Notes under the pieces: model-generated
What the model saw: the letters and a program-made list of their open reading frames with translations, nothing else
Told to the model about the DNA's origin: nothing
Databases searched by the model: none
In this document: positions 11,847 through 52,400 of the stretch, piece by piece
Layout of the letters: each line of letters starts with the position of its first letter
Position numbering within the stretch: the stretch's first letter is position 1
Made by a program: the position numbers and the translations under genes
NCBI GenBank assembly: GCA_045837725.1
Contig: JBEWZL010000077.1
Location: 372,001 to 436,000 of the forward strand
Length of the DNA stretch: 64,000 nt
Reading direction: 5' to 3'
Source: Vermamoeba vermiformis
Lineage: Eukaryota

Positions 11847-12190
11847 GGTTGCATTTAACCTGCGGGCACTCAACCAATCATATCTATCTGCAACAGCGCC
11901 AATGTCTACGTGACTGGCAACACAGTGACGTCACCAGGACAGTTCATCGCGAATGACAGAGCTGCACTGGCACGAGTTCTTGCTACATATCAAGCTGCCG
12001 CTGTCAAGAACTTTGCCGCGCAAAGTGTGACATCGGATATCGAGGAACCTGCCGTTCCAAATGATGTCTTCCGCCAGTATTGGAGGATGCCCCTACAACC
12101 GTTCAAACTGGCGAGTTTGTTAGTGGAGGCATTGGTCTGCCTTTAGCGGCGTATTGTAGTGTGATTGCCTTCGCCACTATCATTTTCTAA
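11847..12190 (+). pseudogene. Disrupted remnant of a Cys-rich surface protein with a GPI-signal-like hydrophobic C-terminus
   Basis: The frame starting at 11960 reads SCTGTSSCYISSCRCQELCRAKCDIGYRGTCRSK*CLPPVLEDAPTTVQTGEFVSGGIGLPLAAYCSVIAFATIIF*. In-frame TGA at 11954 and 12062; no clear start. Confidence 0.5.
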
Positions 12191-12674
12191 AGAGACAGCA
12201 TTGGAATTTAGTATTAGGGATATGAATAGTTTAATTGAATAAACGCTAGAGATGTCTGTTGCTCGAGACTGAAAAAAATTAAAATTTGCATTCGCCTAAA
12301 TTTATTTACAAATTAATTAATTATCGATACGAATCAAATCCAACCAAGAGATGCAAGAAGCTTCTTCGAAGGAGGTTCGTCATACAGGCCACTGAGAGCC
12401 AAAACGTCGTCTGTTGAGTCGTGGTAATCGAGAGTAACCACGAGAGGTGTTTTATTAGTTCTAGCATGTGCTTGCTGCACGGGTGTGCTGGTAGTGTCGA
12501 TGGAAGCGGGCATATTTGTCTACTGTGTTCAACTGTTTAAGCTTTAAAGAAAATAAAACCAGCAAACTGAAAATGGATTTGCAGCTGGACCAAGAAATTT
12601 GCCAGAATATTACTGCTAATCCTTTTATCGCTGCAATCATAACATTTATGCATAATGTAATAAAGCCTATTTTA

Positions 12675-15148
12675 TTACTTGTCTTGCTTATCATACACCA
12701 TGCAAACATCGTTGCCGAGCACTTTGCACTCGTTCAATTTCCAAAACTTAGCATCCTTGATCGTCGTCGCTAATGTGACGCTAGGCCAGCTAATGCCGCT
12801 GCCACCAATCAAACACGCACCGACATATAAGACCACTCTATCAACTAAATTCTTTTCTAAGAACTGCCCGAGCACATTTGGTCCGCCTTCTATTGAAGTA
12901 AAGGTACGAATGTCAGTCAATTTTCCTTATTTGGAAATAATACTTGAGACTCACCAATTAGCACATGCATGATACCTCGTCGGCCTAAGTCTAACAACAG
13001 CTCTTCCAAGTCAATCTTGCCTTCGCTTCGTGAGTTTTTACTGGTCCAAATGTCAACTCCGGCATTGCGCCATACTTCAACTGACTTTGGATCTGCTGCC
13101 TCAGTCGTGGCAATGAGCTTATGATGGGTACGTATTAGTGCTCGTGCGATAAGATAATAAGAGCACTTACTGTCTTCGCCTCGCCGTCAGGACCGCCTTG
13201 AGCAAGCAGCGGTGTCGTTGGATCATTCACACTGCCTCGTCCGTCAATCACAATTCTGAGTGGTTGTTTGACCTCACGCTGTTCGTTCGTGTTCGTGGCG
13301 CTTGTTTGCGGACTTCGTACAGTCAAGCGGGGTCTGTCTTTGATCGCTGTTCCTGCTCCAACTAGCACAGCCCCTGCGTGTCCAACTGTTCCTCGCCACG
13401 TTGAATGCGCGTGTGTTCGTGCATTCTGTATATAAAGACTATTATAACCGAGAAGAAACAACACGAACAGAGTTCGCCGGAAGTAAAAAATTTGTATCGT
13501 GCGTGGGGTCATGTTTGACGTACCTCACCAGTGATCCATTGCGAAGTATAGTCCTCGCAGCCTACTTTTCCATCGATGCTCGAGGCGATCTTTGCAACTA
13601 CTAACGGCTTGCCCGTTCGGCGGTGATGTAAGTATGGACGAAGTGAGTTAAATGCTTGTTCATGGCAGATCCCGACAACAACTTCAATGCCGTGGGATTT
13701 TAAGTATTCGATGCCCTTGTTTCCTACATTTTTATCTTCATCTACTAGCGCAATAACCACTCGTTTGACTCCACATTCGACCAATAGATGATCACAGGCT
13801 GAAAATTAATAATTAGTAATCGGCTTTATATTTAAATCAATGAATAATTAGCACAATAAACTTATTTCATAATTATTTATAAATTATTTCGATTAAATAA
13901 TCACTTACGAGGTGTTCTTTTGCCTTCAAACGGATGACACGGCTCCAAAGTTGAATAAACAATACTATTCTTTAATAAATGTTCATTCCCTGATTCTTTA
14001 GCATCGCGGACTGCATTAGCTTCTGCGTGTCCTTCTCCTGCAAGTCAAATAATCAATAAACAAATCTAAAATCAAATTATTGAAGCTTCAATCATGAATT
14101 AGCCACAATAGCTTACCAGCTTTAGCATGGAAACCACGTCCAATAATATCGCCGTGCTCAGTAACGATTACACAACCAACCCACGGATTTGGCGCGCTTG
14201 TTAATCTTCCTCGTTCTCCGAGTTCAATAGCTTTCAGCATGAACTCTTCATCTTTTAATTTCAACTCCCAATCGGTAAGTTCAAATAATGAGCGCTTAAC
14301 TGCAAATTAAAATATTAGAGCCGTTACTAATATTAATTATTGAATTATCTTACCTTCTGCTGCTGGAGCTTGTAATAATTTGAGTGCTTGATCAAATTCA
14401 ATATTAATAATATCTCCGATTTTTCTGTATTGCAAATTGGTATGCGAGAGAGTGTGTGGGATCAACGAGACACGGATCTGCTGTTCTTTGATCTCTGCGA
14501 CTGTCAAGCTAACGCCGTCAAGGCATATAGAACCTTTATAAATAACGTGTTTGCTGATATCTTCTTTGGAAAGTGCCGACGACAAGTCGATCCACAAGCA
14601 TTGCGAGCCATCCGGATGTGGCAGAACACTTGCAACGCGACCAGTACCGTCTACGTGTCCAGAAGTAGTATGACCTCCGAGATGATCACCGACTTTAAGC
14701 GATAATTCTAAATTGACGACTTTTTCTTCCTCGGTGGACCTGTTTGAGCAACGAAGTACGTTAGATCGATTTGTCGCGCGATTGCATTTTCAAATGATTA
14801 AAATGAGCTAATTATGATATTATAGGACCATCCCGCTGCTATAGGACGCTTCAGTTATTTTTTTGAATCGCGTACCAATATTTCAATTTCAGATCCGGAG
14901 CGGTCTGAAGCGACTTACCACAACGAGCTATTGAAATTCGTTTTGTTCCTCGTTTCCTCCATAGCAAAGAAAGTAGCAGTATCGCTTCCGTTAGTTTCTT
15001 CTAAGAGCGTCAAGCAAACTCCGTTCACCGCGATCGAATCTCCTTTTTTGCAATGGCGCCAGAACTCTGGTGAGCATCGTACGTGCAATATAAAATTTTT
15101 ATCGTATTTGGCATAGCCTATAGCTTGAATTAATCCTGTGAACACCAT
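12675..15148 (-). CDS. ribE-ribD: Riboflavin synthase (alpha type) fused to bifunctional RibD deaminase/reductase
   Basis: Synthase: MVFTGLIQAIG, GDSIAVNGVCLT, VNLE, GGH..SGHVDG, KGSICLDGVSLTV, LIPHT, GDIINIEFD. After a 54-nt phase-1 intron (14353-14300), deaminase: FMLKAIELG, APNPWVGCVIV, HAEANA, STLEPC..KRTPPC. Reductase: KIASSIDGK, SQWITG, VLVGAGT..DRPRLTVR, IEGG. Confidence 0.92.
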
Positions 15149-15382
15149 GTCTGCTCGTGCACTAATTCACTTTCTCAGATGTGGTCTGAAAACTCTTTAG
15201 TAATAAAACTAACGGCACCGAATGTGGAAGAATCTCGGAACCGAACTTTCGGATTTAAACGGAAAGGGGGAATGGTGAACTTACCACCCGAAGTTTCCGC
15301 AAACTTCCCGAAGCTTCAGCCATGTGCCTTCGGGTAACGAAAAAACAGATTTTTTCACGGCCTACTTTTTGAAGATTATTCG
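15149..15382. promoter_or_regulatory. Bidirectional promoter region between the two rib fusion genes, rich in CCGAA/TTCGG inverted repeats
   Basis: 234 bp between divergent ATGs. Inverted repeats at 15241-15252, 15260-15299 and 15307-15334. Confidence 0.55.
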
Positions 15383-17726
15383 ATGAACACAATGCAAGCC
15401 GAGCAAGTCAAGTTCTCTACTATAGAAGAAGCCGTCGAGGCCTTCAAGAAGGGCCAGTTCGTTATAGTTATGGACGATGAGGATCGCGAAAACGAAGGCG
15501 ATCTCATCCTCGCGGCGGAGCTCGTGACCGCTGAAAAAGTCGCATTTGCTTTGCGCCATACGAGCGGTATATTATGCGCTCCTATGACCTATTCCCGCGC
15601 TAATGAATTGCGATTGCCAATCATGGTCACGGAGAATACGGATCCGAACAAAACCGCTTTCACCATCTCGTGCGACGCGAATGAAACTTCGACGGGCGTA
15701 TCAGCTCAAGATAGATACTTGACCTTTACTGCCTTGGCTGACCCGAGCAAAGGTTCCGCAGATTTCCGCCGGCCCGGGCATGTGTTTCCGTTGGTTGCAA
15801 AACCAGATGGAGTTTTGCAACGCAGAGGCCACACTGAAGCTGCCGTTGATTTGTGCAAACTTGCTGAGCTGACTCCAGTTGGATTTATCGGCGAGATGAT
15901 GAAGCAAGATGGTAAGTATTTAGATTCATGAAATTTGAGATCCGCAGACCAGATCAAACCAGAAATTTAACTAATTCGAAATTATAATATAATGACTCTT
16001 GTATTGATGTATTATATGTTTCGCGTATTCACGTCTTTTTGAAAAATCACCTGAACTCACATTTTGGCTGGCAGGTACAATGATGCGCCGCGACGATTGC
16101 TTTGCCTTTGCCAAAGAATATAATTATCCTATTATCACTATTGACGCGCTAGTGGAGTATAGAAAGAATCAAGCTGACCAAGCTAAGGAACTCTCCGAAT
16201 CCCAAAAGATCGTCGAACTCATCTCGCACTGCGATTTGCCTATCGAAAGGAACAACAAGAAATTAGGAACATGGCATTTATATTGCTACTTCTCTCACCG
16301 CGATGGCAGACATCACGTGGCCTTGGTCAAAGGTCGCGGGATCGAGGAAGCGAAATCTGAAGTACCTTTGGTCCGAGTGCACTCTGAATGCTTTACTGGC
16401 GATGTATTAGGCTCATTGACTTGTGACTGCGGAGAACAACTGACTTTGGCGCTCGAAAAGATTGACGAGGCTCAGTCAGGCATTCTCATCTACCACATGG
16501 GTCATGAAGGTACGTTAATCCTCGACTTCAAAACTCTTTTGATAGCATTGAATATTATTTTTATCATTTAAGCGCGTCGCTACTATTTATTATTTTCCGA
16601 ACCTAAAATTGGATGCACTTCTTTACCAGTAGTAGATCGTAGCTAAATTTCAGTATCGAATTATAGGTCGAGGCATTGGCTTGGGCAACAAGATTCGCGC
16701 GTACAACTTGCAACAGACTAAGCAAGTCGATACATTCGAGGCTAACAAAATGCTTGGCTTCCCTGCTGATCTGCGAACATACGAGACTGCTGAAGCTATT
16801 TTGGATGACTTGGGCGTTAAGAAGGTTAGATTGCTCACTAATAATCAAGAAAAAGTGAACTCTCTCAAGAAATACGTGCAAGAAGTAGTGCCGTTACAAA
16901 CCCCGCCAAACACCCATAACGCCAAGTACTTGAAGGCCAAGCACGATCATCAAGCTCAATTGAAGGCTACTATTCAGACAGTAGTCAAGGATTTAATCGA
17001 GAATAATAATTTGTTGGGCTCAACAGCAGTTATTGGCACATCCGCGAAACCGATCGAATCCACTTCGGAGTCGACTCCGAAACCTCAGGCTTCAGAACAC
17101 CACAAATCGGTGCCACTGTACAGCAGCGTTCCTCTGCCTCGAGAAGCAGCTCATTTGCGAATTGGCCTCGTCAAGACAATGTGGAACGAAACGCTGGTAC
17201 ACGACCTAACAACGCAGATCAAAGACGAGTTGAAGAAGCTTTCAGTCCAAGACGAGAACATCATTGAAGTTACAGTACCGGGTTCTTTCGAACTGCCATA
17301 TGCTGCGAAGCAACTGGCTCATCCTGGTAAGTCCAAGCAGTCGTGCAGGCGGATCAACAGCGGATCTAACCAATTTTTTCAGATGAGAAACTCGATGCAG
17401 TGATATGCTGCGGAGTGCTTATTAAAGGAGAGACCTTCCATTTTGAAATGATCAGCACGAGTGTTGCAAACGGCTTAATGAACATTCAGATCGAGACTGG
17501 TGTTCCAATGATCAACGGAGTATTGAACTGCATGACTATTGATCAAGCTGAGGCTCGATGCGGTTACAAGAGCGACTTGCCGTCGTCTTTGGCTTGCACA
17601 GCTGTTTATATGGCCAATTTGAAGAGTAGCAAGTTCACACGGACACCTTTCTCATCTGTGGCCCGATTCAACCACAACGAAGCAGCAAATAACGTCTTAA
17701 CTGTTCCTCAACCCTGCGGAAAATAA
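15383..17726 (+). CDS. ribBA-ribH: Triple fusion: DHBP synthase (RibB) - GTP cyclohydrolase II (RibA) - lumazine synthase (RibH)
   Basis: Rib[43 protein letters not shown]. Rib[42 protein letters not shown]. Rib[42 protein letters not shown]. Exons 15383-15911, 16075-16509, 16667-17326, 17383-17726. Confidence 0.95.
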
Positions 17727-18042
17727 CTTAAAAGCCTATAATAATAATGTTTTGATCAACTAATGTAAATAGCGTTAAAAAGCCTTTAATCCGAACTCTT
17801 TATTTAACTGAGTCATACCGTAGTAGCTCTACATGGTGGCTTGCATGAAAACACACGCTTCATAGAAAAGAAAAGCGCTTACCAAAAAAGGAAAGTTGTT
17901 CTTTCGTTACGTTAAAAAACAAATCGCAGAAAATTTGGTTTCGGCCAAAAATGGAGAAAAACAAAATTTGTTGTATTGTTGGAGTTAAAAACAGTTTACT
18001 AACCTTACTTCAACCCAAAGCAACAACACCGACATTTCAATC

Positions 18043-18252
18043 ATGAACTTTTGGAACGCAGTTGTCAGCGTAGTGACCGGCAGCACCCCGACCATCACTC
18101 CCAATATTCCTGCAACCTCGACTACTGGCTACACTAACAACAATGGTACCGACAACTACATTGCCTACAATAACACGCCTTTGGGTGATACGTTCTACCA
18201 AAATGTAGGCAAGACTGTGCCAGTTGAGACGTTCTACGAGATGACCGAATAA
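18043..18252 (+). CDS. Small intronless Thr/Asn-rich protein (69 aa), unknown function
   Basis: ATG in a C/A-rich leader like other genes here, coding-like GC content, AATAAA about 90 nt downstream. Confidence 0.5.
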   Translation: MNFWNAVVSVVTGSTPTITPNIPATSTTGYTNNNGTDNYIAYNNTPLGDTFYQNVGKTVPVETFYEMTE

Positions 18253-18536
18253 CCGTCGGTTAGTCGAAAGATTTCCAAAGAATGCTATACTAAGCGAACT
18301 GAGACTATTGTCATTTGGATATCCGTAGATATTGATTATTAAATAAAGTCCGGCTTTTCGGAACCAGATCTAATTTATTTTAATCTACTTAATTTAATCT
18401 TCGTGTTAAGGGTCGCCTAGCTACGTATCGATATCATACTTAGGTACTACCCTTCACGTGGTGCGCATACAGCAAGACTTTTGCTTATCCGTAAACGGTG
18501 GATGGAAATTCCATGCTTTTGGTGCAAAGTGGACTT

Positions 18537-21500
18537 TTAAATGTTGAATTCTCTTTCATACATTGTCTCCAATCGTTGGATAATTGCCTTGAGCGGCAAT
18601 CGTTTCTCAGGTTCAGGGTGCCAGCAATCCGTAATCAAATCGGCGTAATCTGTGGGACAACCTGCTGGAATTGCTTCTCGATTGCCGTCAAGGACGAACT
18701 TTGACACGTCCCACACGTGTTTGAAAGCGGTATATGGCTCTTTTTGCGTAATGATAACCCAAAGCAAGACACCGTAGCTGTAAATATCGGCTTCTTTGTT
18801 ATACCGCTTGCTTAGTAAGATCTCTGGGGCCATGTAAATAGGGGTGCCAACACCTTTGGTGAAAGTTTCGAGCTTGTCTTCCATCCTTCGCGCGCTTCCA
18901 AAATCGCTCAAGCGGATCATGTTTGGCGCATTGACATCCGTAGACTCGATGAGGACGTTGTCTGCTTTAATGTCGCGATGAAGTACGTTGTTTTGGTGCA
19001 AGTAGTCAATGGCTTTAGCGATCTCTAACGCGATCCGCAGTTTGGTTCCATACGGAATTTTCTTAGTCATTAACTTCTCTAAACTTCCGTTGGGCATGAA
19101 TTCGGTTATTATTGCCATTTTCCCAGGCAATTTAGATGCGCCAATGAGTGACACAATTCCTGGATTTTTCAGCTCGGACAATAATTGGATCTCGCGTTCA
19201 AATTCTTCTACGGTCTTCTCGTCAACGATATCTTGATATTTCAGCATCTTCACCGCCACATCTTGACCTTTGTATTGACCTCTATATACGACTCCAAATC
19301 CTCCTTCGCCAATCGGTGACTGATCCATTTGAATTTCCTCGATGTCAATCCACACTGAGGGGTTTGTGGTGATATTGCACGGAATGTAGAAGTGTCTGTG
19401 AAGCTCGGGCAGTTCCACACCGATCAGGGCCGTGACGCTGGTTGCCACATTCATTTTCAGCTTAATCATGACACTCTCAACGCCAGACGATTCGTCATGA
19501 GAGCTCAGTCTGCTGGGCCTCCAATTGTAATCCAATGTAACCGCATCAGGTTGGACTATCAACGAGCATTTTGGCGTCTTGGGAGCGTGAAAAATGACTG
19601 TTAAATTCTTGTTGACGAGAGGCACGTGCATGTCAGAAGCTTTTTTCGCGACAAGTTTTTTGCTTTGTCTAATCGTGGCCAGAGCCAGCTGCAATCCTCC
19701 GTGCAGATTTAAGTCAATAGTATCGGTATACTCTTCGTTGACATCGAAGCTTGTTGTTCCTCCGAAAGTTAAGGTTGTTTTTGAGAAGGAAACAGGCAAG
19801 TTGGCGATGTTGGAGCTAAGTTTAGATCCTTCAGGCGGAGTCCAGACAGGCAACAACGGGTATTGGACGTCATCGACGCCGTACGTGGCCTTATGGAACG
19901 TGATTTGTCGGCGCTGGTTGATTTTTCTTCGAACGTAAACCACAGTAACCACAATGGCCACAACGGCGCTGGAACAAACGAGCACTACAACCAAAGAGAT
20001 GTCTCGGTCTGACAGTCTGACGTTTAATGGCACTTCCTTGCTGTACACCGTTTTCGCTGGATTCGATACTTGCACTTTAATTCTATCGCCATTCATGGAG
20101 CGAGTAGCAGTGAATATCAAAACTCTGCCAGTCGCCTGTGTAAATGCGTTAAGAGTGAGTCTCCGATTTTGTCCCAAACCCCCAATTTTGTCCCAAACGA
20201 TTTTGGACTAAAATTTAACAATAATTTATTTTAATACTTATTTAATGGAGTGATTTCAATACGAATAGATAAATAATAAGTGAATACTTGAATTACAGTT
20301 GATTTAATCGTGCAATTCGCCTTCATCACTGGCCAGATCGGATCTTTCTTCGCTCAGATCAGATCCGCATTCAGCAGCATGCTCATCATGAATATCTCGT
20401 TTTTGACACTTCTTGCATACTTGATAGCTATTACATGAGGTGCAGACCCAAAATTTGTGCTTCTTGGTATATATACGACGGCAAGGTGAGCACGTCCTAC
20501 TAATCACATCACTCTGTTTGTCAAGTTTGCGTCGCTTGACGAGCTCTTGTCGCTCTTCTTTCTCCTCTTCTCTCTTTCTCTTCTTGTCCTCTCTTTCTTT
20601 CTTCGCAAGTTCTTTAGCCTCCTTCTCTTTCAGTGCTTTTTCCTCCTTCTCACGGGCATAGATCACCAACTGCTGGCCAGTCACCAATTTATTCCGCTCA
20701 TTGGCACGTACTCGCTTGATAGGAGTCTTGGTTTGATTAGGTATCAAGGCCTCCTTAAGTATCAGTGCCATAGCTTTAACTTCTTCATCTTCACTGGTGT
20801 GCAGTTGAGGTTTTGTGTCGAACATGTACATGTTCTGAAATTTCTTGCTGATAAGTGCACTATCGAATGGCCAAATGCCTGTATGTCGAAATCCTGCCTT
20901 AATGACCTCTTTATCAAATATATTGGACTTCTCCTCCGTGATAATGTCTTCAATAACAGAGTGCAGGGTCTCTCCAGTGAGGAGCCGTCGCATTCTTTCA
21001 AGGTCTCTCTTGACACGCATCTTGCGTTTGAACGAGCCAAAAATCACGTCGTCAAGAGGTTGAAGCAAATGAGTTGTATGTGCTGGTAGGTACAGGGGCT
21101 GTATATCAGAATCTAATAGCAAGTTGATGCTGGTCAACTCCAGGTGGGTGGAGTGGCGGTCAAGAAGTAAAAGAGCTGGTTGTCCTTGCTTGAACGCTGA
21201 AAGTCGCTCCACGAGTCGCGCTATTATTTGCTTCCACAACTCATTTGTAATAAAGCCATTAGCTGTTGTGGCATAATAAGTTGGTATAGTGCTGCGAGTA
21301 TATCTCAGCTCTGTAGTGACGGGAATCGAATTCTTCTTTTCGTTGCCATTTTGTGACATGTCCTTGTAGATGAGCACTATCATCCAAACACGACCAGATG
21401 CTGCAACGAATGGAAGTATAGTGCGTAGATGACTCTTGGGAGTACTCAATCTACCCTGCTTTTTCGAATTTGCACTCGTTAGAATCTTCGAACTTTCTCC

Positions 21501-24500
21501 GTCAGTAAATTTACAGGGAGATTCGTCAGCGTTGATGATGAAGTCGTCCGTGTAACTTTTCTCTTCTAGTAGCCTCTTGTATTCTTTCACAAATGACTCA
21601 ATAATATCAATAGTGACAGAATTGACACGTCCCATGTCGAGGTCTTTACCAAACGCGTGAGAGATGTGATCTGAATTGCGGATCAGAAAATTGCTAAACC
21701 AGTGATCGCCTCGCCAGTCTTCAGGGAGCTCAAATATCTTACGTACAAAACTAATGAATACACTTCTCGACAGAGCTATTCCGCTTGCTGAAAAAGCTAA
21801 AATGATGCTGCATAGTCTTTTTTCTTGCTGATCGGTGAGCATCTGATTTCCATGTTTCTTCTCTTTATTCTTTTGAGCCCGCTGGTAGGCTTTGCGAAGT
21901 GTTTCGAATTTATTGGGACTATTCCGCGTCAAATCGCGAATAATTTCGCTAATTGTCTCGCCGTTTTCTGAAATCCGTTGATTGATCTCATGAATTTCGT
22001 TTTCATACTTCGCCATTACAGGTCAGAAAAATTATAAATAAAATCAATACTATTGAACAACAAGCTGTCGTGTTCGTGTGCGAAGCAACTTATTGAATGC
22101 CGTTGGTAAAATAATTTGCGAAATTACGCAAAAAAATCGGTTGGGACAAAATCAGGGGTTTGGGACAAAATCGGCGACTCACTCTAAAATATGGCGAAAA
22201 AATCTGAAAAAAAAATCTTACGCCCTCGATCTCTTGGTCATTTCTGTACCACTGGTAGCTCAGACGGTACTCAGGTGTGGCTATTGCTGAGAAAGTGACG
22301 TTGTTACCCTCTTGTACGTCTGCGACTGGCTGATTGAAAATCTCGTTCTGCAGCACAGGGCCGCCGAGCAGTTCTAATTGAGTCACGTGTTTTTCAAGAG
22401 GTATTGAGCCTCGATTGTTGTGTATAAAAATGTCGTATGAGCCACGGTGCCTCTCTGTGACGTTCGGAATAAGCAATGTCGGGGATGTTTCTCCTGTTTT
22501 AGCGTGTCAAAAGTGTCAACGTGAGACACGGCCAAAAACAACTTACCCGGCAAAGGCGTGCGGTTTACAGCCCATGTGAACTTTAGATTGCTTAGTGCTT
22601 GACTAGACAAGTCGACAGAGAGTGTTACAGGATGGCCCACAAATGCGTAGGCGACGGGATAGTTGGGCGAGTTGACTTCCAAAGGCACGACCGTGACCGA
22701 GAAGTCTATTGGCCCCGCAGTGCCAGCCAAGTTGTGCATGTAGAGTTGGTAAGGTCCAGCGTGCTGATCAGTCACACTTTTAATCTGGAATCGACTCGTA
22801 TTTACCGCCACCACAATGCCGTTGTGTTTCCACTCGTACAACACGCCCCAGCTAGCAGACACCGCATCGATTTGCAGCTCGGCACCCTCTAACACCTCGT
22901 AGCTGGAGCTCAGCGGCACCACTAGCTCGGGAAGTGTGACAACAACGATGGTCGTTGAGACTGTGGCTGATCCAGAGGGATTGCTTGCAGTTACACGAAG
23001 GATTGTGCCGTTGTACGCGGTGGTGACTTGTGGCAAAATCCAGAAAGTATCTGAAGTGTTGTCGAGTACGACAGTATCGTTCAGGACCCAAGTGTACGTG
23101 ATGCCGCCTGTTGCTGGCCGATCGAACAGATTGGACCTGCCAACCACGATAGGAGTTATGTCGCGCGGGGTACGATCGAACACTGGTTTTGGCTGAACTA
23201 CGATGAAACCTGGCGCACTTGTGAGTTGTCCTGCGCGATTTGAAACTGTGACAAAAGCAACAATCTCAGCTCCCGTGTGGATGACATTAGGCACCACGAT
23301 AGTAGAGCTTGTTTCGGACTCGATGGTTGTGAATTTAAAAGAAGGTATTAATCTCCATTGGAACTCGAGCGATCTACCCTCCGCTGTGACACTCAGTTCG
23401 GCAGTCTGATTGAGAAATATTCGGACAGTTTCGGGTTGTTGAGTGATACTTGGTTCTGGCTCCATCATCAGCGCGATGTTAACTGCGGTCGAAAATCCGT
23501 TAACGTTGAACGCCTCGCCTCTTATGACAAGCCCATCGTCTGCTTCAGTTAAGGGCCACAAGGTGAGCTGGGACGAGTTCTGGTAAGGTATGAGAGTTGA
23601 GCCTTTGTACCACCGATATTGCGCGCCTTCGCCAACGGTTTCCATGAATAGAATGGGTGTTTCATCAAGCCAAAAGGAAACAGGAGATTCAGAGTAGTCG
23701 ATAATTTGCGGCGCGGGCTCGGGATGGATCCAGATCTCAGGACCAAGTGTTGCGCCTGAAGGGTTGCTGGCTTCCAATTGATACAGCGTTGAAACAATAC
23801 TCGGGTCCAACTGCACGTCTAACGTAGTGGTATTTCGCTGGCCTATAGTCTCGTTGTTCCTGAGCCATCGAATAGCGAGCTCTTCGCCGAACATTTGATT
23901 GGTCAAATCCAACGTGATTGTATCATTTAGCAGCAAATTGAAGTCCCGCCTCGTGTAGTCGATGAACCAAGGCTGTGGGTTGAATGCGACTTGCATTTGG
24001 GACTCTGCAAACCCATTGGGATTTGAGACCCGAACCACAACTTCCGTCGAGTCAGCGATCGTAGATCCCGCTTGAAGTTCTATTGTTGTTAATCCTGTCA
24101 AGTCTTCTTGTTTGATTCCGTTGACGAACCATTCGTATTGAAGACGCTGACCAACTGCCGTGGCAGAAAAAAACACCGTTCGCCCCGGAAAAACTGCAGC
24201 TGGATCGACTAGTGTAGACAAAATTGTTGGACTTGGATAAGCTACAAGGACAGTAGGCGCCGTCTTCAATGAAAGGCCATCGGTGCTGATGCTAACGGTA
24301 TACTTGGCACCATCGTCTTCAAGCGTAAAGTTGGCGATGTCAATGCTTGGCGAAGTTTCTCCGGGAAGTGGAACGCCGTTTCTGTGCCATTGATAAAATA
24401 CTTCAAAGTTGTCTTTTTCTGATTATTAAATATTAGCAAAATCAATATTGATATGAATCATGCTTACTCAAAACTTTAACGGCAAGTCGGATCGAGTCTC

Positions 24501-43477: not shown

Positions 43478-44474
43478 TCAATTTATTTCTTTGTCTTCTT
43501 TTTTAGCGTTGAATTTTCCGTAAATATGATCACCTACTGCTATTACTGCAATAGTTACAATTCCGCGAACAAAAGCCAATTCGGCTCCACCGAAAAAACC
43601 GACCAATCCTTCGTGCTTAAAAATTGATCTGGCAGCCTTAATTCCAGTTATATCCAATCCATTAGATACCATTGCATGATTTCTTATAGTATCGCCTGGA
43701 TAGATCAATTGGCTGACACCAAGAAACGTAAGGCTGCTGAGCCAAAATCCTCCCTTGGTACCAAGTTGTTCCTTCAAGAAGTCGTATATCACCACGTATA
43801 GTCCTTTGTGTATAGTAGCACTGACTATGCATGGTATTATGCCATTAAAGCTGGATAAAAAGTTGATCGGAGATGCGAACAGATCTTTAACCACTGAAAG
43901 AGTCGTAACTGGATTGATAGCACTAGGAATTGATCCACTAATGCGTGTGCTTATTGTGTTAAGTGGAGCTGTTAAAATATAAGCTAAAGATGTCGCCAAA
44001 GTTCCAACGAGATGTGTCTTGATCTGTTTTTTGGCGGGGCTGTCTTTTCTAGGCTTAATTTTGAATATATTGAGGTTGCTAAGTGTAATTCTAATATTTT
44101 TCAATAGCAGTTGAAACGGGAAGCCTCGTATAACTTCTAATAAGCCGCCTTTAAAAAATGACACGTATCCTTCTTTGTTAATTACATCTTTAGCCCACTC
44201 CAAGTTGGATGATTTTCTTGATATTCTATTTGTGAGCAAGTATTGGCCCTGATAATAATTTAGTGAGTTCACGTCAAGAAAAAAATCGGATGCAAGCAAA
44301 AAACAATTTTAAAAATCATTGCAGCACTTTGCCAATAACTCGTAATAGGCACAGTATGATTAATTGTTTTGTAAGAAAAATATTAAAAATTACCTGGACT
44401 TGGCGCAGCATTCGGATCCGTTCCAGCGGACAAGTCACGACTTTATTGATAGACGAAATCGCCAACGAATACAT
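43478..44474 (-). CDS. Divergent mitochondrial carrier family (SLC25) protein, ADP/ATP-carrier-like N-terminus
   Basis: Three carrier repeats: CPLERIRMLRQVQ..EGYVSFFKG; APLNTISTR; YPGDTIRNHAM..EGLVGFFGG. Confidence 0.75.
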
Positions 44475-49403: not shown

Positions 49404-52400
49404 TTAAAGCTTCAATTGAGCGAAAAATGGTCGCAGTAGATCCGCGACATCCGGGCAACTGAATTCTGAACAGACGAACTCGAACTTCCTCGCAGGGTAA
49501 AGCAGGTTCTCTAACTCTGCAAATGATAGCGATGTGAATAGCGGGTGTAACTCTTCTAGGTAATTATGATCGCTCTTCTTCAATTCTGCTTGCCATTCAC
49601 TGAACGGCACCACTTGCCACTCACATCCGCTGAACGACTTGAACATTTCGAAGAGCTCGTTGACTGCAATATGCTTTTGATTGGCAAGATGATATATCTT
49701 CTTATTATTGGCCCTAAGAGACAACGATACGATTGCCTTGCTGACGTAATCAACGGGTGTAATGTCTGTTTGACACGTGTCAAAGTCTGGTCGAAGTTTC
49801 ATAGCCGCACATTGACGCAACAACCTCGCCAGCCAATCGCTAGCAAAATCACCAGTAGTGCTATGACTAGCTACTAGGCCAGGCCTATATATCACCGCCT
49901 AAGTTCAACGACATCAATCGACATTCTTGCCTCGCACTAGTATTATGTACTTACCTCGAGACCTTGTTTCATTGCCGCTTCAACAACGCGTTCTGCAACC
50001 CACTTTGACGCGGCGTATCCTCCGTAGATTTCCGTCGCTGTGTTTTCCGTGACCAAATCTGTTTCGTGAATAACTCGCTTGCTAGTATTCGTTGACGTGA
50101 AGACTGATAACGTTGAAATATAGTGTAATCGCTTAAGCTTGCCATTGGTGCAAAAATCAATAACATTTCTTGTTCCTTCGACATTTGTCTTCTTTAGTAC
50201 GTCGTACGGAAGTATGACATTGACATTTCCTGCGCAATGATAAACAGAGTCAATCTCGTTTAGGAGATTATTATAATCTGACAGAATATTAGCAATGATA
50301 TCAGCACATGTCTTTCAATGTTCTATTACCTTCTTGTGACATGCCCATATTTGGAAGGGCCACATCACCAATAACAACATTGAAGTTGTCGCTTCCAATC
50401 TTTGCACTAATTTTCGCCTTGGCATCCCTTGAACGAACTAAGCACGTGATAACGGCACCAATAGATGACGTTTGATCTATTAGATCTCGTAGTAGATAAG
50501 AGCCTAAGTAGCCAGTCGCTCCTGTAAGTAAAATATTTTTGACTCTAGGGCTTGTGTTTTGACCAATAGTGCCAAGTTGTATATGACAGTCGTTCAATAA
50601 ATCTTTGACTAATATAGACAAGGTCTGTGCTTGAGTATTAACCTTGTTAATTAAATCTCCAATCGTCTTATTGGTCAGAATATCGCTCAGTGAAAGTTCG
50701 ATGCCTTGCTGCTTGGCCTTTTGAATCAGTTGTACGATGGTAATAGAATTGATTCCCAAATCGAATAAACTATCTTCTTCATTGACTTCAGTATGAACTA
50801 TTTCCGCTATTATTTTTTTCAGAACTTCTTTACGGGACGAAAAAGTGGTACTTTTCTCCTCTGCCTTGCGTTGCTTGTAGATTTCTTTCAGTTTCTTCCG
50901 ATCAATCTTTTCATTGTTGTTTCTTGATAGCTCGTCTAATACTATGAACTCGCTAGGCACCATGTAATGAGGAACTTTTGAGGCCAAGTACTCCTTAGTA
51001 TCTTTTTCACTGAAAACGTGGTGCTGTTCGACTACAATAAACGCGACCAAGTGACTATTTTCTCCTTCATCGGATAAAATAACCTTCGCTTGTTTGATAG
51101 ATGGATAATGTAACAGCTGATTTTCAATCTCTTGCAGCTCGATCCGTTGACCACGTAATTTCACTTGGTCGTCAACTCGCCCAAGAAACTGCGTGCTATT
51201 AGACACTATATAAATAGACTCTAAGGACTTACCAAGATATCGCCGTCGCTTTTTCTAGCCACTCTGTCTCCAGTTTTGTACATTAATTTACCGTTGTGAC
51301 GGATGAACTTGGCAGCTGTCAGTACCTCATCACGGAAGTATCCGCGAGCCACGCCAGGTCCGATGATATACAGCTCGCCGTCGTCTATCTCGTTCATATT
51401 CTCATCGAGCACTAGCAGCTCTGTGTTCGGGATTGGCTTGCCGATAGATGTTGATTCGAAGTCGCCTTCTGGTTCGTAGATCTGCATTGACGTGCAAACA
51501 GTAGCTTCAGTAGGTCCATAAACGTTAACTAATCGAACCTATATGATGTCAGAAGGACTATCATGAATGTCAAATCAACGTACTTTCTTGCGCCATCGGT
51601 CAATTTCTTTCGCTGAACAGACCTCACCGCCAATAATAACAGTCTTCAAACAAGTTGGCGTAGGTTCCATTGGCAGAAAAGGCAAGAAGGCAGGAGGAAG
51701 GCAAGCCACGTTGAAATTTCGTCGTTCGATGATTGGAAATATCTTCGAGGCCAGTGCTTTATCAGCGTACTCTTCCATCGATAAAAAGCATAGCTGAGCA
51801 CCAGACAACAGCGCCACAAACATTTCAGAGATTGAGGCATCAAAACAAATCGGCAAAAACTGAAGTAAACGACATTGAGGGGGCACGTTAAATGCCTCTA
51901 TTTGAGCCCTTATAAAGTTACATATACCACGGTGCTCTACTGCCACACCCTTAGGTTCGCCAGTGCTCCCTGAGGTATAAATAATATACCTATAAATAGT
52001 CAATATTAACCCTTCACAAGACCACCAGCTTACGCTAAAGAATCGAGTGGCAAAGATCCGAGTTGCATTTGGTTCTCCGAGACTAACGAATCGTTAAATG
52101 CCTCCATGATAGTATCGATATATATTGGCCGGCATTGAAGGTCTTGCACGATAGACTGCAACTTCTCGGCTATGAAACAGAGAATAAGAAACTTGAGTTC
52201 GGATCTTACTGACTTACCATACTCTCGACAGGTAATTATGTAAGGTGCTCGCGTATGCTTGCAAATAAAATTAAGTCGCTCGTGTGGGTGATTAACATCC
52301 AAGGGCACGTAAGCTAAACGCGTTGCCATGACACCCAGCATTGAGATCACGAGCTGCAGGCCACGAGGAAGCAAAACGACTATTGGCGTTTCATAAGAAA

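What the first reader, a model, noticed from the sequence alone, without database searches (positions are those of the whole stretch)
12675..17726. Riboflavin pathway compressed into two divergent fusion genes in an intron-rich eukaryote
Seen: two head-to-head spliced genes 234 bp apart encode riboflavin synthase+RibD(deaminase/reductase) and RibB+RibA+RibH. Established: these are the enzymes of the bacterial ribD-ribE-ribBA-ribH operon, whereas yeast uses separate RIB genes with unfused deaminase and reductase. Inference: a bacterial-type rib operon was acquired and converted to eukaryotic expression by gene fusion, intron gain and a shared bidirectional promoter, giving a two-polypeptide vitamin B2 module. 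Only the pyrimidine phosphatase is not evident.
Basis: partly seen in the sequence, partly recalled or inferred. Interest (0 to 1): 0.92.

Follow-up and report, generated by a model that had tools for sequence, protein, structure and literature searches.

The report
Two-gene fused riboflavin pathway, amoeba-type
Two neighbouring genes that point away from each other encode the six core enzymes of vitamin B2 synthesis as two fusion proteins; this is real, but the same fusions already occur in many amoebae, other protists and giant viruses.

Summary
On the minus strand, 8 exons (15148 to 12675) encode a 611-aa riboflavin synthase + RibD deaminase/reductase. On the plus strand, 4 exons (15383-17726) encode a 655-aa RibB + RibA + lumazine synthase. 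All 10 introns are GT..AG, and the two ATGs lie 234 bp apart. The RibB/RibA and RibA/RibH joints lie inside single exons. Intron-free contigs of run X5 skip 8 of the 10 introns exactly, including the one between RibE and RibD.

Both architectures are widespread: 64 of the 120 listed relatives are RibBA-RibH fusions, and 84 of the 150 best representatives have RibE before RibD. Named holders are Stenamoeba, Protostelium, Dracoamoeba, Balamuthia, Eutreptiella, Orpheovirus and Indivirus. The Orpheovirus paper (PMC5786535) already reports both fusions and a homologue of the RibBA-RibH fusion in Acanthamoeba castellanii.

None of 160 prokaryote-type loci fuses RibH to RibBA or places ribE before ribD. 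In the trees the sampled bacteria form one well-supported clade apart from the fused forms. These are therefore old protist/giant-virus fusion families, not a recent operon capture.

Three points look new: the head-to-head pairing, a cluster of three CCGAANNTTC sites in the spacer, and gene B grouping with the Orpheovirus gene.

The parts
12675..15148 (-). Gene B: riboflavin synthase (RibE) fused to bifunctional RibD (deaminase + reductase); 8 exons, 611 aa
   Evidence: Splice model; Pfam per exon; colinear with 9 fused homologues; 5 of its 7 introns are skipped in X5 contigs.
14919..15148 (-). Gene B exon 1: start codon and first lumazine-binding barrel of riboflavin synthase (begins MVFTG)
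   Evidence: Lum_binding 5.1e-11. A stop lies just upstream in frame, so there is no presequence.
14354..14739 (-). Gene B exon 2: second barrel of riboflavin synthase and the start of the linker
   Evidence: Lum_binding 2.4e-23; NF006767 riboflavin synthase positions 77-188.
14300..14353 (-). 54-nt intron at the RibE|RibD joint (GTAAGA..TTTGCAG)
   Evidence: Skipped exactly in an X5 contig (depth 4, 127 nt on the shorter side). If retained, the frame stops after 5 codons.
14117..14299 (-). Gene B exon 3: linker and the start of the deaminase
   Evidence: dCMP_cyt_deam_1 8.7e-07.
13909..14037 (-). Gene B exon 4: deaminase zinc motifs (HAE ... PC), with a 2-residue insert shared with Orpheovirus
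   Evidence: dCMP_cyt_deam_1 8.3e-06; alignment.
13524..13798 (-). Gene B exon 5: end of the deaminase and start of the reductase
   Evidence: TIGR00326 eubact_ribD positions 78-168, 83.6 bits.
13171..13425 (-). Gene B exon 6: reductase
   Evidence: RibD_C 8.3e-09.
12955..13117 (-). Gene B exon 7: reductase (no family hit on its own)
   Evidence: Colinear with homologues; both flanking introns are skipped in X5 contigs.
12675..12889 (-). Gene B exon 8: end of the reductase and the stop codon
   Evidence: RibD_C 2.7e-07, positions 139-196 of 197.
15149..15382 (.). 234-bp spacer between the two start codons; inferred shared bidirectional promoter
   Evidence: Length and sequence. The N-terminal extension of relative P0246 matches 15268-15312. 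Promoter function is inferred.
15241..15317 (.). Cluster of three CCGAANNTTC sites (15241-15252 palindromic, 15288-15297, 15308-15317); candidate shared regulatory sites
   Evidence: 4 of the 7 strand matches in the whole 64-kb window fall here; 2.5 are expected for the whole window. Direct repeat D1.
15383..17726 (+). Gene A: DHBP synthase (RibB) + GTP cyclohydrolase II (RibA) + linker + lumazine synthase (RibH) + C-terminal tail; 4 exons, 655 aa
   Evidence: Splice model; Pfam; 90% identical to P0243 without gaps at the joints; all 3 introns are skipped in X5 contigs.
15383..15911 (+). Gene A exon 1: DHBP synthase
   Evidence: DHBP_synthase 1e-72, positions 1-162 of 191.
16075..16509 (+). 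Gene A exon 2: end of DHBP synthase and first half of GTP cyclohydrolase II (Cys-x10-Cys-x-Cys)
   Evidence: Both families hit within one exon.
16667..17326 (+). Gene A exon 3: second half of GTP cyclohydrolase II, a linker of about 65 aa, and the start of lumazine synthase
   Evidence: GTP_cyclohydro2 positions 89-161 and DMRL_synthase positions 2-57 within one exon.
17383..17726 (+). Gene A exon 4: rest of lumazine synthase and a tail of about 35 aa ending PQPCGK, then the stop codon
   Evidence: DMRL_synthase positions 59-138 of 139; tail motif.

Best explanation
This is a working, nuclear, probably cytosolic riboflavin pathway of an amoeba-like protist, packed into two spliced genes. Gene A supplies GTP cyclohydrolase II (first step), DHBP synthase (the four-carbon branch) and lumazine synthase. 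Gene B supplies the pyrimidine deaminase and reductase (steps 2 and 3) and riboflavin synthase (last step). Intermediates must therefore pass A to B, then to a separate phosphatase, back to A, and again to B. Only two of the fused pairs are consecutive steps (deaminase to reductase; DHBP synthase to lumazine synthase). The most likely benefit of the fusions and the 234-bp divergent spacer is therefore fixed 1:1 dosage and common regulation of six activities without an operon. Channelling would be at most partial. Both genes belong to two old fusion families (RibE-RibD and RibBA-RibH) shared by amoebozoans, some other protists and giant viruses. They are not an innovation or a recent bacterial acquisition of this genome. 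Shown here: gene structures, domains, splicing, family membership and distribution. Inferred: enzyme activity, cytosolic location, the shared promoter and the dosage rationale.
For: The gene models are complete, in frame and bounded by GT..AG introns. All six enzyme domains are found per exon. 8 of 10 introns are skipped in X5 contigs, and spliced raw RNA reads cover gene A. Motifs I recall as catalytic or metal-binding are present, and most fall on columns reported as invariant or nearly so in the homologue alignments: [55 protein letters not shown]. The full-length relative P0243 passes the curated cut-offs for ribB (247.4 vs 177.45), the RibA subfamily (201.4 vs 148) and lumazine synthase (116 vs 84.6). 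The relative P0125 passes eubact_ribD (258.7 vs 156.35) and riboflavin synthase (174.4 vs 155). Both proteins start directly with their first enzyme domain, with an in-frame stop just upstream. The neighbours are ordinary eukaryotic genes: an SNF2/HSA remodeller, a protein kinase, Ig-domain proteins, a mitochondrial carrier and a BRCT protein. Distribution: 64 of 120 listed relatives carry RibBA+RibH, and 12 of those also carry RibE+RibD. 84 of the 150 best representatives have RibE before RibD. Three CCGAANNTTC sites cluster in the spacer.
Against: No enzyme assay or genetic test exists. Two gene B introns (14038-14116 and 14740-14918) have no RNA support here; they rest only on splice signals and colinearity. 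Run X5 is only guessed to be RNA. The raw RNA reads are few and 1-5% divergent. The ribA equivalog-domain score of relative P0243 (189.7) is below its cut-off of 205.85. No transcription start was mapped, so a shared promoter and co-regulation are inferences. The phosphatase step is not accounted for: none of 22 large ORFs scanned in the window hit a phosphatase family, but that was not a systematic search. The rest of the genome could not be searched for further rib genes.
Confidence: 0.85

Rival explanations
1. One reading: this lineage captured a bacterial rib operon fairly recently and converted it by fusing neighbouring genes, gaining introns and adding a bidirectional promoter.
For: The domain content equals that of the ribD-ribE-ribBA-ribH operon. 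BA followed by H is the operon order. The RibD part is of the bifunctional bacterial type. The unfused proteins that score best against the RibBA part are bacterial, at about 50% identity.
Against: RibE precedes RibD in the fusion, but this order is seen in 0 of 160 prokaryote-type loci. The few prokaryote-type fusions run RibD then RibE (P0186, L172, 5 of 150). The bacteria form one clade apart from all fused forms, with support 100, 99 and 100. The same fusions occur in several amoebozoan lineages, a euglenid record and giant viruses. The RibH part scores best against solved structures that I recall as fungal.
Confidence: 0.08
2. One or both genes came into this amoeba from a giant virus, or the fused cassette is passed between eukaryotes by such viruses.
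For: Gene B groups with Orpheovirus ORPV_596 (P0125) and P0128 with SH-aLRT 99, and shares two indels with them. Giant-virus contigs carry the module apart (L161), tail to tail (L163) and as one 1108-aa frame (L162). Records labelled as rotifer, nematode and locust fall inside the protist-type clade.
Against: The window-plus-Orpheovirus group sits inside a clade with Stenamoeba and Protostelium (support 90), which fits host-to-virus transfer better. Gene B has 7 introns, and the composition profile shows no break at the locus (GC 0.42-0.43 in the 2-kb bins from 12001 to 18000, against 0.25 for the Orpheovirus locus). Gene A does not group with the Orpheovirus RibBA-RibH gene. The trees are unrooted and cellular sampling is thin.
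Confidence: 0.12
3. The RibE|RibD fusion is an artefact of the splice model: intron 14300-14353 is normally retained, and riboflavin synthase and RibD are made as separate proteins.
For: With the intron retained the frame stops after 5 codons, and an in-frame ATG lies 21 codons into exon 3. No raw RNA read covered this joint.
Against: An X5 contig skips exactly these 54 nt. Nine homologues, including Trinity transcripts of Stenamoeba and Protostelium and the intron-free Orpheovirus gene, are continuous across the joint. In 84 of 150 representatives RibE and RibD are in one protein in this order.
Confidence: 0.04

Closest known systems
Orpheovirus IHUMI-LCC2 ORPV_596 and ORPV_666, with the homologues its authors name: Indivirus ILV1 for both fusions and Acanthamoeba castellanii Neff for ORPV_666 (Andreani et al. 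2018, PMC5786535; passage read)
   Same: The same two fusion proteins. RibBA+RibH is a single 573-aa frame (L161). P0125 carries Lum_binding + deaminase + RibD_C. Gene B is sister to P0125 and shares its indels.
   Different: The viral genes have no introns and lie more than 10 kb apart. The paper labels ORPV_596 as DHFR/deaminase/RibD and does not name its riboflavin synthase part. Here the genes are spliced, head to head and 234 bp apart.
Single-polypeptide riboflavin proteins of giant-virus type (Indivirus ILV1 P0311, 1101 aa; viral contig L162, 1108 aa)
   Same: The same five-domain order, RibE-RibD-RibB-RibA-RibH. This equals gene B followed by gene A.
   Different: They are one reading frame. 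Their RibBA parts lie outside the clade of two-gene protist forms (the base is unresolved). They lack the C-terminal [QPA]PC tail (0 of 18).
Bacterial rib operon (ribDG-ribE-ribAB-ribH of Bacillus subtilis; PMC9048828 abstract seen) and its 'heavy riboflavin synthase' capsid (PMC2935281, passages read)
   Same: The same six activities. RibB-RibA is fused in the same order, RibD is bifunctional, and the genes are co-expressed as a unit.
   Different: The operon has four separate proteins in the order D-E-BA-H (68 of 160 loci complete, none with E before D). The alignment shows that the window's RibH lacks the GTKxGNKG turn seen in the bacterial rows. My recollection is that this turn marks capsid-forming enzymes. 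RibE's C-terminus is not free, because it is fused to RibD.
Fungal RIB genes (separate RIB1, RIB2, RIB3, RIB4, RIB5, RIB7; recalled) and pentameric fungal lumazine synthases (PMC2935281)
   Same: No targeting peptide, so the pathway is probably cytosolic. The RibH part scores highest against 4kq6, 2jfb, 1c41 and 1ejb, which I recall as Candida, Magnaporthe and Saccharomyces enzymes.
   Different: In fungi the deaminase and reductase are separate proteins. Here the bifunctional RibD scores 319-338 bits against five solved bifunctional RibD sequences and 77-130 against monofunctional reductases.
Plant RIBA (bifunctional DHBP synthase/GTP cyclohydrolase II; PMC3509567, abstract seen)
   Same: A eukaryotic RibB-RibA fusion.
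   Different: Plant enzymes are plastid-targeted (recalled) and, as far as I recall, are not fused to lumazine synthase. No plant sequence could be brought into the trees.

Membership tests
RibBA (bifunctional DHBP synthase / GTP cyclohydrolase II) | A complete DHBP_synthase domain followed by a complete GTP_cyclohydro2 domain in one chain | tested here: met
   PF00926 positions 1-162 (exon 1) and 164-191 (exon 2). PF00925 positions 10-86 (exon 2) and 89-161 of 165 (exon 3).
RibBA (bifunctional DHBP synthase / GTP cyclohydrolase II) | Curated NCBIfam cut-offs | tested here: inconclusive
   The window could only be scanned exon by exon, so every piece is below cut-off. The 90%-identical P0243 passes ribB (247.4 vs 177.45) and the RibA subfamily (201.4 vs 148). 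It misses the ribA equivalog domain (189.7 vs 205.85) and all bifunctional equivalogs (472.4 vs 569).
RibBA (bifunctional DHBP synthase / GTP cyclohydrolase II) | Zinc-binding Cys-x10-Cys-x-Cys and the GHEGRGIG loop of cyclohydrolase II (the role of these motifs is recalled) | tested here: met
   [18 protein letters not shown] and GHEGRGIG are in the model. The corresponding columns are invariant in 20 fused proteins.
Lumazine synthase (RibH) | A complete DMRL_synthase domain | tested here: met
   PF00885 positions 2-57 (exon 3) and 59-138 of 139 (exon 4). P0243 scores 116 against the TIGR00114 cut-off of 84.6.
Capsid-forming (icosahedral) lumazine synthase | The G(T/G)K(A/H)GNKG turn between the last two helices (recalled as the mark of 60-mer enzymes) | tested here: not met
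   The window has [13 protein letters not shown] where bacterial rows have GTKAGNKG (alignment). The oligomeric state itself was not tested.
Riboflavin synthase (RibE) | Two tandem lumazine-binding barrels starting at the N-terminal MxFTG | tested here: met
   PF00677 in exon 1 (5.1e-11) and exon 2 (2.4e-23). The protein starts MVFTG. NF006767 positions 1-74 and 77-188 of 192.
Bifunctional RibD (eubacterial type) | A CDA-fold deaminase with HAE and PC..C zinc motifs, followed by the RibD_C reductase | tested here: met
   PF00383 in exons 3 and 4; PF01872 in exons 5, 6 and 8. HAE and PC(x10)C are present, with a 2-residue insert shared with Orpheovirus. A profile of the fusions matches 2b3z over chain residues 10-368 with 337.7 bits.
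Protist/giant-virus RibE-RibD fusion family | RibE N-terminal to RibD in one chain, on the fused side of the tree | tested here: met
   Colinear with 9 members. On the non-bacterial side of a branch with support 99, and sister to P0125/P0128 with support 99.
Protist/giant-virus RibBA-RibH fusion family | RibH C-terminal to RibBA in one chain, on the fused side of the tree | tested here: met
   Both joints lie inside exons. Outside the bacterial clade, which has support 100.
Bacterial rib operon taken over as a unit | Gene order ribD-ribE-ribBA-ribH on one strand, with bacterial sister groups for the parts | tested here: not met
   Here the order is E-D on one strand and BA-H on the other. 0 of 160 prokaryote-type loci have E before D. 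No bacterial sister group appears.

The most novel reading that the evidence does not exclude
The two fusion genes are a self-contained vitamin B2 cassette that moves between eukaryotes, with giant viruses as carriers. The cassette appears head to head (this window), tail to tail (L163), dispersed (Orpheovirus) and welded into a single protein of about 1100 aa (Indivirus, L162). It also turns up in records labelled as rotifer, nematode and locust. Gene B of this window is the closest cellular relative found for the Orpheovirus copy. A further possibility concerns the conserved C-terminal [QPA]PC tail on RibH, which is present only in the two-gene cellular forms. It may dock the two polypeptides into one complex, standing in for the bacterial capsid that encloses riboflavin synthase.
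Probability: 0.2. Interest if true: 0.65.

Novelty: new member of a known kind. Interest (0 to 1): 0.35.

Why it matters
This is a clean, transcript-supported example of how a eukaryote without operons keeps six enzyme activities in step, using two fusion genes and one short divergent spacer. Three modest points go beyond what I found in print. The first is the head-to-head pairing with a cluster of three CCGAANNTTC sites, which gives a testable shared control region. The second is the close kinship of gene B with the Orpheovirus gene, a concrete case of gene flow between an amoeba-like host and a giant virus. The third is a conserved C-terminal tail of unknown role. In the library searched, the eukaryotic fusions are mentioned only in one passage of a virus genome paper, so a proper comparative study appears not to exist yet. 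It is not a new kind of system.

Tried and rejected
1. The window's own genome is not held, so I could not look for further rib genes, the phosphatase or paralogues.

3. Synteny in other protists was not obtained. The single metagenome scan returned 80 loci, and none has RibH in the RibBA reading frame; where ribD and ribE lie nearby they sit in the bacterial operon order. Single tblastn hits spanning RibBA and RibH looked like bacterial fusions at first. An ORF check showed that they run through stop codons: 0 of 160 are fused.

4. The RibH-only tree (104 rows, 143 columns, FastTree) was too poorly resolved to use. The bacterial rows needed 3 changes.

5. The protein atlas search of the RibH part gave only bacterial lumazine synthase clusters at score 0.90. 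This is a lead only. It points the opposite way to the PDB scores and is not decisive.

6. The complex-prediction job (RibE-RibD of Stenamoeba with the RibH + tail part of Stenamoeba) was not folded by the tool, so there is no information about binding.

7. Two searches for PDB codes in papers did not confirm the source organisms of 4kq6, 2jfb, 1c41 and 1ejb. Only 1rvv = B. subtilis was confirmed. The other organism names are recalled.

8. Contamination or a bacterial contig was considered and rejected, because of the introns, the eukaryotic neighbours and the absence of a composition break at the locus.

9. Literature searches found no paper on these eukaryotic fusions other than PMC5786535. 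The supplementary tables of PMC4921024, a catalogue of prokaryotic riboflavin fusions, could not be opened and may list related architectures.

Full report
**What is there.** The region holds two complete, oppositely oriented, spliced genes.

- Gene A lies on the plus strand. Its exons are 15383-15911, 16075-16509, 16667-17326 and 17383-17726. They give an open 1968-nt reading frame of 655 aa. The three introns are 163, 157 and 56 nt, all GT..AG.
- Gene B lies on the minus strand. Its exons are 15148-14919, 14739-14354, 14299-14117, 14037-13909, 13798-13524, 13425-13171, 13117-12955 and 12889-12675. They give 1836 nt and 611 aa. The seven introns are 53-179 nt, all GT..AG.
- The two start codons are 234 bp apart. 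The finding's coordinates are the two stop codons.

**Domains.** In Pfam, 11 of 12 exon translations hit the expected family.

- Gene A carries DHBP synthase, GTP cyclohydrolase II and DMRL (lumazine) synthase.
- Gene B carries two lumazine-binding barrels of riboflavin synthase, a cytidine-deaminase-fold domain and RibD_C.
- Only the 54-aa exon 7 of gene B had no hit of its own.
- Exon 2 of gene A holds the end of RibB and the start of RibA. Exon 3 holds the end of RibA, a linker of about 65 aa and the start of RibH. Those two joints are therefore continuous reading frames in the DNA.
- NCBIfam places the pieces on the same models. Full-length relatives pass the curated cut-offs for ribB, the RibA subfamily, lumazine synthase, riboflavin synthase and eubact_ribD. 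P0243 misses the ribA equivalog-domain cut-off (189.7 vs 205.85).

**Transcript evidence.**

- Contigs of run X5 skip 8 of the 10 predicted introns at exactly the predicted borders: all three in gene A and five of seven in gene B. The tool only guesses that X5 is RNA.
- One of the skipped introns is the 54-nt intron 14300-14353, which joins RibE to RibD.
- Introns 14038-14116 and 14740-14918 were not listed.
- Raw RNA-seq reads under the same species label (X21-X23) are few: 28, 31 and 70 laid. Nearly all are 95-99% alike, so they come from another strain.
- Even so, 4 reads in X22 span intron 15912-16074. Loose ends at 16510/16511 and 17326 continue with the next exon's sequence in variant form.
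- The gene A model is 90% identical (596 of 659 aligned positions) to P0243, a 655-aa protein called on a 2087-nt contig. The only gaps are in the linker and the C-terminal tail.
- The gene B model aligns end to end with nine other RibE-RibD proteins at 37-51% identity.

**Setting.**

- Neighbouring ORFs are typical eukaryotic nuclear genes: an HSA/SNF2 remodeller, a Myb-domain ORF, a protein kinase, a DDE transposase, Ig-domain proteins, coiled-coil proteins, a mitochondrial carrier, an adenylation/carrier/reductase protein, a BRCT protein and a transketolase-type E1.
- GC content shows no break at the locus.
- Both proteins begin directly with their first enzyme domain, with a stop just upstream in frame. 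I therefore infer a cytosolic location.
- The nearest named relatives of both genes are amoebozoans. I infer that the organism is an amoebozoan-like protist.

**How widespread the architectures are.**

- Starting from exon 3 of gene A, 5 of the 120 listed longer proteins combined lumazine synthase with the cyclohydrolase. One was a 1024-aa protein with all six families.
- With the full-length relative P0243 as query, 64 of 120 listed proteins carry RibBA plus RibH. Twelve of those also carry RibE plus RibD.
- Named sources are Stenamoeba stenopodia, Dracoamoeba jomungandri, Balamuthia mandrillaris, Eutreptiella braarudii, Indivirus ILV1, and records labelled Rotaria sordida, Ditylenchus destructor and Schistocerca gregaria.
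- Starting from exon 2 of gene B, 10 of 120 listed proteins combine riboflavin synthase with RibD. Nine have RibE first. Their sources include Stenamoeba, Protostelium nocturnum and Orpheovirus IHUMI-LCC2.
- A profile search of 1.84 billion representatives was followed by a domain check of the best 150. It gave 84 proteins with RibE before RibD, and 33 of these continue into RibB or further. A further 55 were plain RibD, 5 had RibD before RibE, and 6 had other layouts.

**What is in print.** The Orpheovirus genome paper (PMC5786535, passage read) reports two proteins with fused bacterial-type riboflavin domains. These are ORPV_596 and ORPV_666 (RibA+RibB+RibH). It names Indivirus ILV1 as a homologue of both, and Bacillus subtilis and Acanthamoeba castellanii Neff as homologues of ORPV_666. 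Six literature searches found no other paper on these eukaryotic fusions. The supplements of a catalogue of prokaryotic fusions (PMC4921024) could not be read.

**Is it a captured bacterial operon?**

- I examined 160 prokaryote-type loci: 80 from metagenomes and 80 from named GTDB genomes.
- None has RibH in the RibBA reading frame. The gene order is ribD-ribE-ribBA-ribH in 68 complete cases, and ribE never stands before ribD.
- One fused protein (P0320) groups with a KSB1 bacterium, so it looks like an independent bacterial RibBA-RibH fusion.
- The few prokaryote-type fusions of RibD and RibE run RibD first.
- For the trees I kept at most three named bacterial loci per phylum. In a RibBA tree of 119 rows (FastTree), the 39 named bacterial loci, 4 named bacterial proteins, the unnamed P0310 and P0320 form one clade with support 100. 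Every other fused or all-in-one protein lies outside it. So do four RibBA-only proteins that I had grouped with the bacteria: the unnamed P0302, P0309 and P0317, and the diplonemid P0305.
- A 50-row IQ-TREE quick run gives the same split with SH-aLRT 100. The base of the fused side is unresolved.
- In a 48-row RibD tree, 23 bacteria sit on one side of a branch with support 99.
- Against solved structures, the RibD part scores best with bifunctional RibD chains. The best five sequences score 319-338 bits; I recall 2b3z as B. subtilis RibG and 2g6v as E. coli RibD. Monofunctional reductases reach 77-130 bits.
- The RibH part scores best with 4kq6, 2jfb, 1c41 and 1ejb (92-105 bits), which I recall as fungal pentameric enzymes. 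Aquifex (1hqk) scores 76.5, B. subtilis (1rvv) 70.5 and spinach (1c2y) 71.
- The atlas search points the other way, to bacterial clusters at 0.90, but it is only a lead.

Taken together, the fusions are old, are shared by protists and giant viruses, and have no identified bacterial donor. An ancient bacterial ancestry of some domains remains open, because no fungal, plant or dictyostelid sequences could be placed in the trees.

**Giant viruses.**

- In the Orpheovirus contig (L161) the RibBA-RibH gene is a 573-aa frame, with no RibE-RibD gene within 10 kb.
- A 362-kb viral contig (L163) has the two genes tail to tail, about 65 bp apart.
- A 151-kb viral contig (L162) has one 1108-aa frame with the order RibE-RibD-RibB-RibA-RibH.
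- Gene B of the window groups with Orpheovirus P0125 and P0128 (SH-aLRT 99), inside a clade with Stenamoeba and Protostelium (support 90).
- Gene B shares two indels with those viral proteins: EPCHPFEGKRTPPC and HSTWRGTVGHAG.
- Gene A shows no such link.
- Orpheovirus was isolated on Vermamoeba vermiformis (PMC5786535). The simplest reading is that the virus took the gene from an amoeba related to this organism. The direction of transfer is not proven.

**How it most likely works.** Gene A makes the two entry enzymes and lumazine synthase. Gene B makes steps 2 and 3 and the last step. Intermediates therefore alternate between the two chains and pass through a separate phosphatase. Only the deaminase-reductase and RibB-RibH pairs are consecutive steps. 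I therefore favour dosage coupling over channelling: one message gives three activities at 1:1:1, and the 234-bp spacer couples the two messages.

The spacer holds three CCGAANNTTC sites within 77 bp (15241-15317). These account for 4 of the 7 strand matches in the whole 64-kb window, where 2.5 are expected. I propose them as shared regulatory sites, but this is an inference. The N-terminal extension of relative P0246 matches 15268-15312 (80% of 15 residues), so the spacer is conserved there. That protein sits on contigs of up to 3853 nt, and P0252 on contigs of up to 4117 nt. These are long enough to hold both messages, which hints that the pairing is kept in the sister species.

The alignment shows that the window's RibH lacks the GTKxGNKG turn of the bacterial rows, a turn I recall as typical of capsid-forming enzymes. 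Published work says fungal enzymes are pentamers and the B. subtilis enzyme is a 60-mer that encloses riboflavin synthase (PMC2935281). I therefore expect a pentamer core decorated with RibBA, not a capsid. This was not tested.

**An unexplained feature.** Of the 53 two-gene-type RibBA-RibH proteins examined, 22 end in a tail with [QPA]PC plus two or three residues. The window's ends PQPCGK, and Stenamoeba, Dracoamoeba and Balamuthia also have the tail. None of the 18 all-in-one or viral proteins has it. The one attempt to test whether the two chains bind each other was not folded by the tool.

**Verdict.** It is not supported on a recent operon capture, and it is refuted on novelty. This is a new member of known fusion families, with a few modest new details.

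Noticed in passing
window 15241-15317: Three CCGAANNTTC sites (one palindromic) lie within 77 bp of the 234-bp spacer. They give 4 of the 7 strand matches in the 64-kb window, where 2.5 are expected for the whole window. The core GAAnnTTC resembles a heat-shock-element half-site pair (recalled).
   Followed up: partly
window 17625-17723 (end of gene A): The C-terminal tail after the lumazine synthase core ends in PQPCGK. 22 of 53 two-gene-type RibBA-RibH proteins end in [QPA]PC plus 2-3 residues, against 0 of 18 all-in-one or viral proteins. Its role is unknown.
   Followed up: partly
window 12675-15148 vs P0125/P0128: Gene B is sister to the Orpheovirus RibE-RibD protein (SH-aLRT 99) and shares two indels with it. 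Gene A shows no such link to the Orpheovirus RibBA-RibH gene.
   Followed up: partly
L162 8345-11668; P0311, P0041 and others: Single proteins of about 1000-1350 aa carry the whole pathway in the order RibE-RibD-RibB-RibA-RibH. There are 12 among the 120 rows. Among the 150 rows, 33 continue from RibE-RibD into RibB or further (20 of them have all six segments). Indivirus ILV1 is one example.
   Followed up: partly
L163 9905-13508: On a 362-kb viral contig the two fusion genes are adjacent but tail to tail, about 65 bp apart.
   Followed up: partly
P0277, P0279, P0292: RibBA-RibH fusions occur in records labelled Rotaria sordida (878 aa, with extra domains), Ditylenchus destructor (on a 4.8-Mb contig) and Schistocerca gregaria. 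They nest among protist-type sequences. This could be gene transfer into animals or contamination.
   Followed up: no
P0320; L172 8056-9879; P0186: Independent prokaryote-type fusions exist. P0320 is a RibBA-RibH protein that groups with a KSB1 bacterium. L172 and P0186 are RibD-RibE fusions in the operon order.
   Followed up: partly
window 20304-22022 (-): An uninterrupted 572-aa ORF with a DDE_1 transposase domain lies 2.6 kb downstream of gene A. It is a possibly intact pogo/Tigger-type element.
   Followed up: no
window 12200-18300, runs X21-X23: RNA-seq reads filed under the same species label as the likely source differ from the window by 1-5% at many mostly synonymous-looking sites. 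Strains under this label are therefore quite divergent.
   Followed up: no
window 50301-51254 (-) and 43478-44308 (-): One ORF has AMP-binding_C, a carrier domain and a reductase domain, so it resembles alpha-aminoadipate or carboxylate reductase. A mitochondrial carrier gene lies nearby.
   Followed up: no
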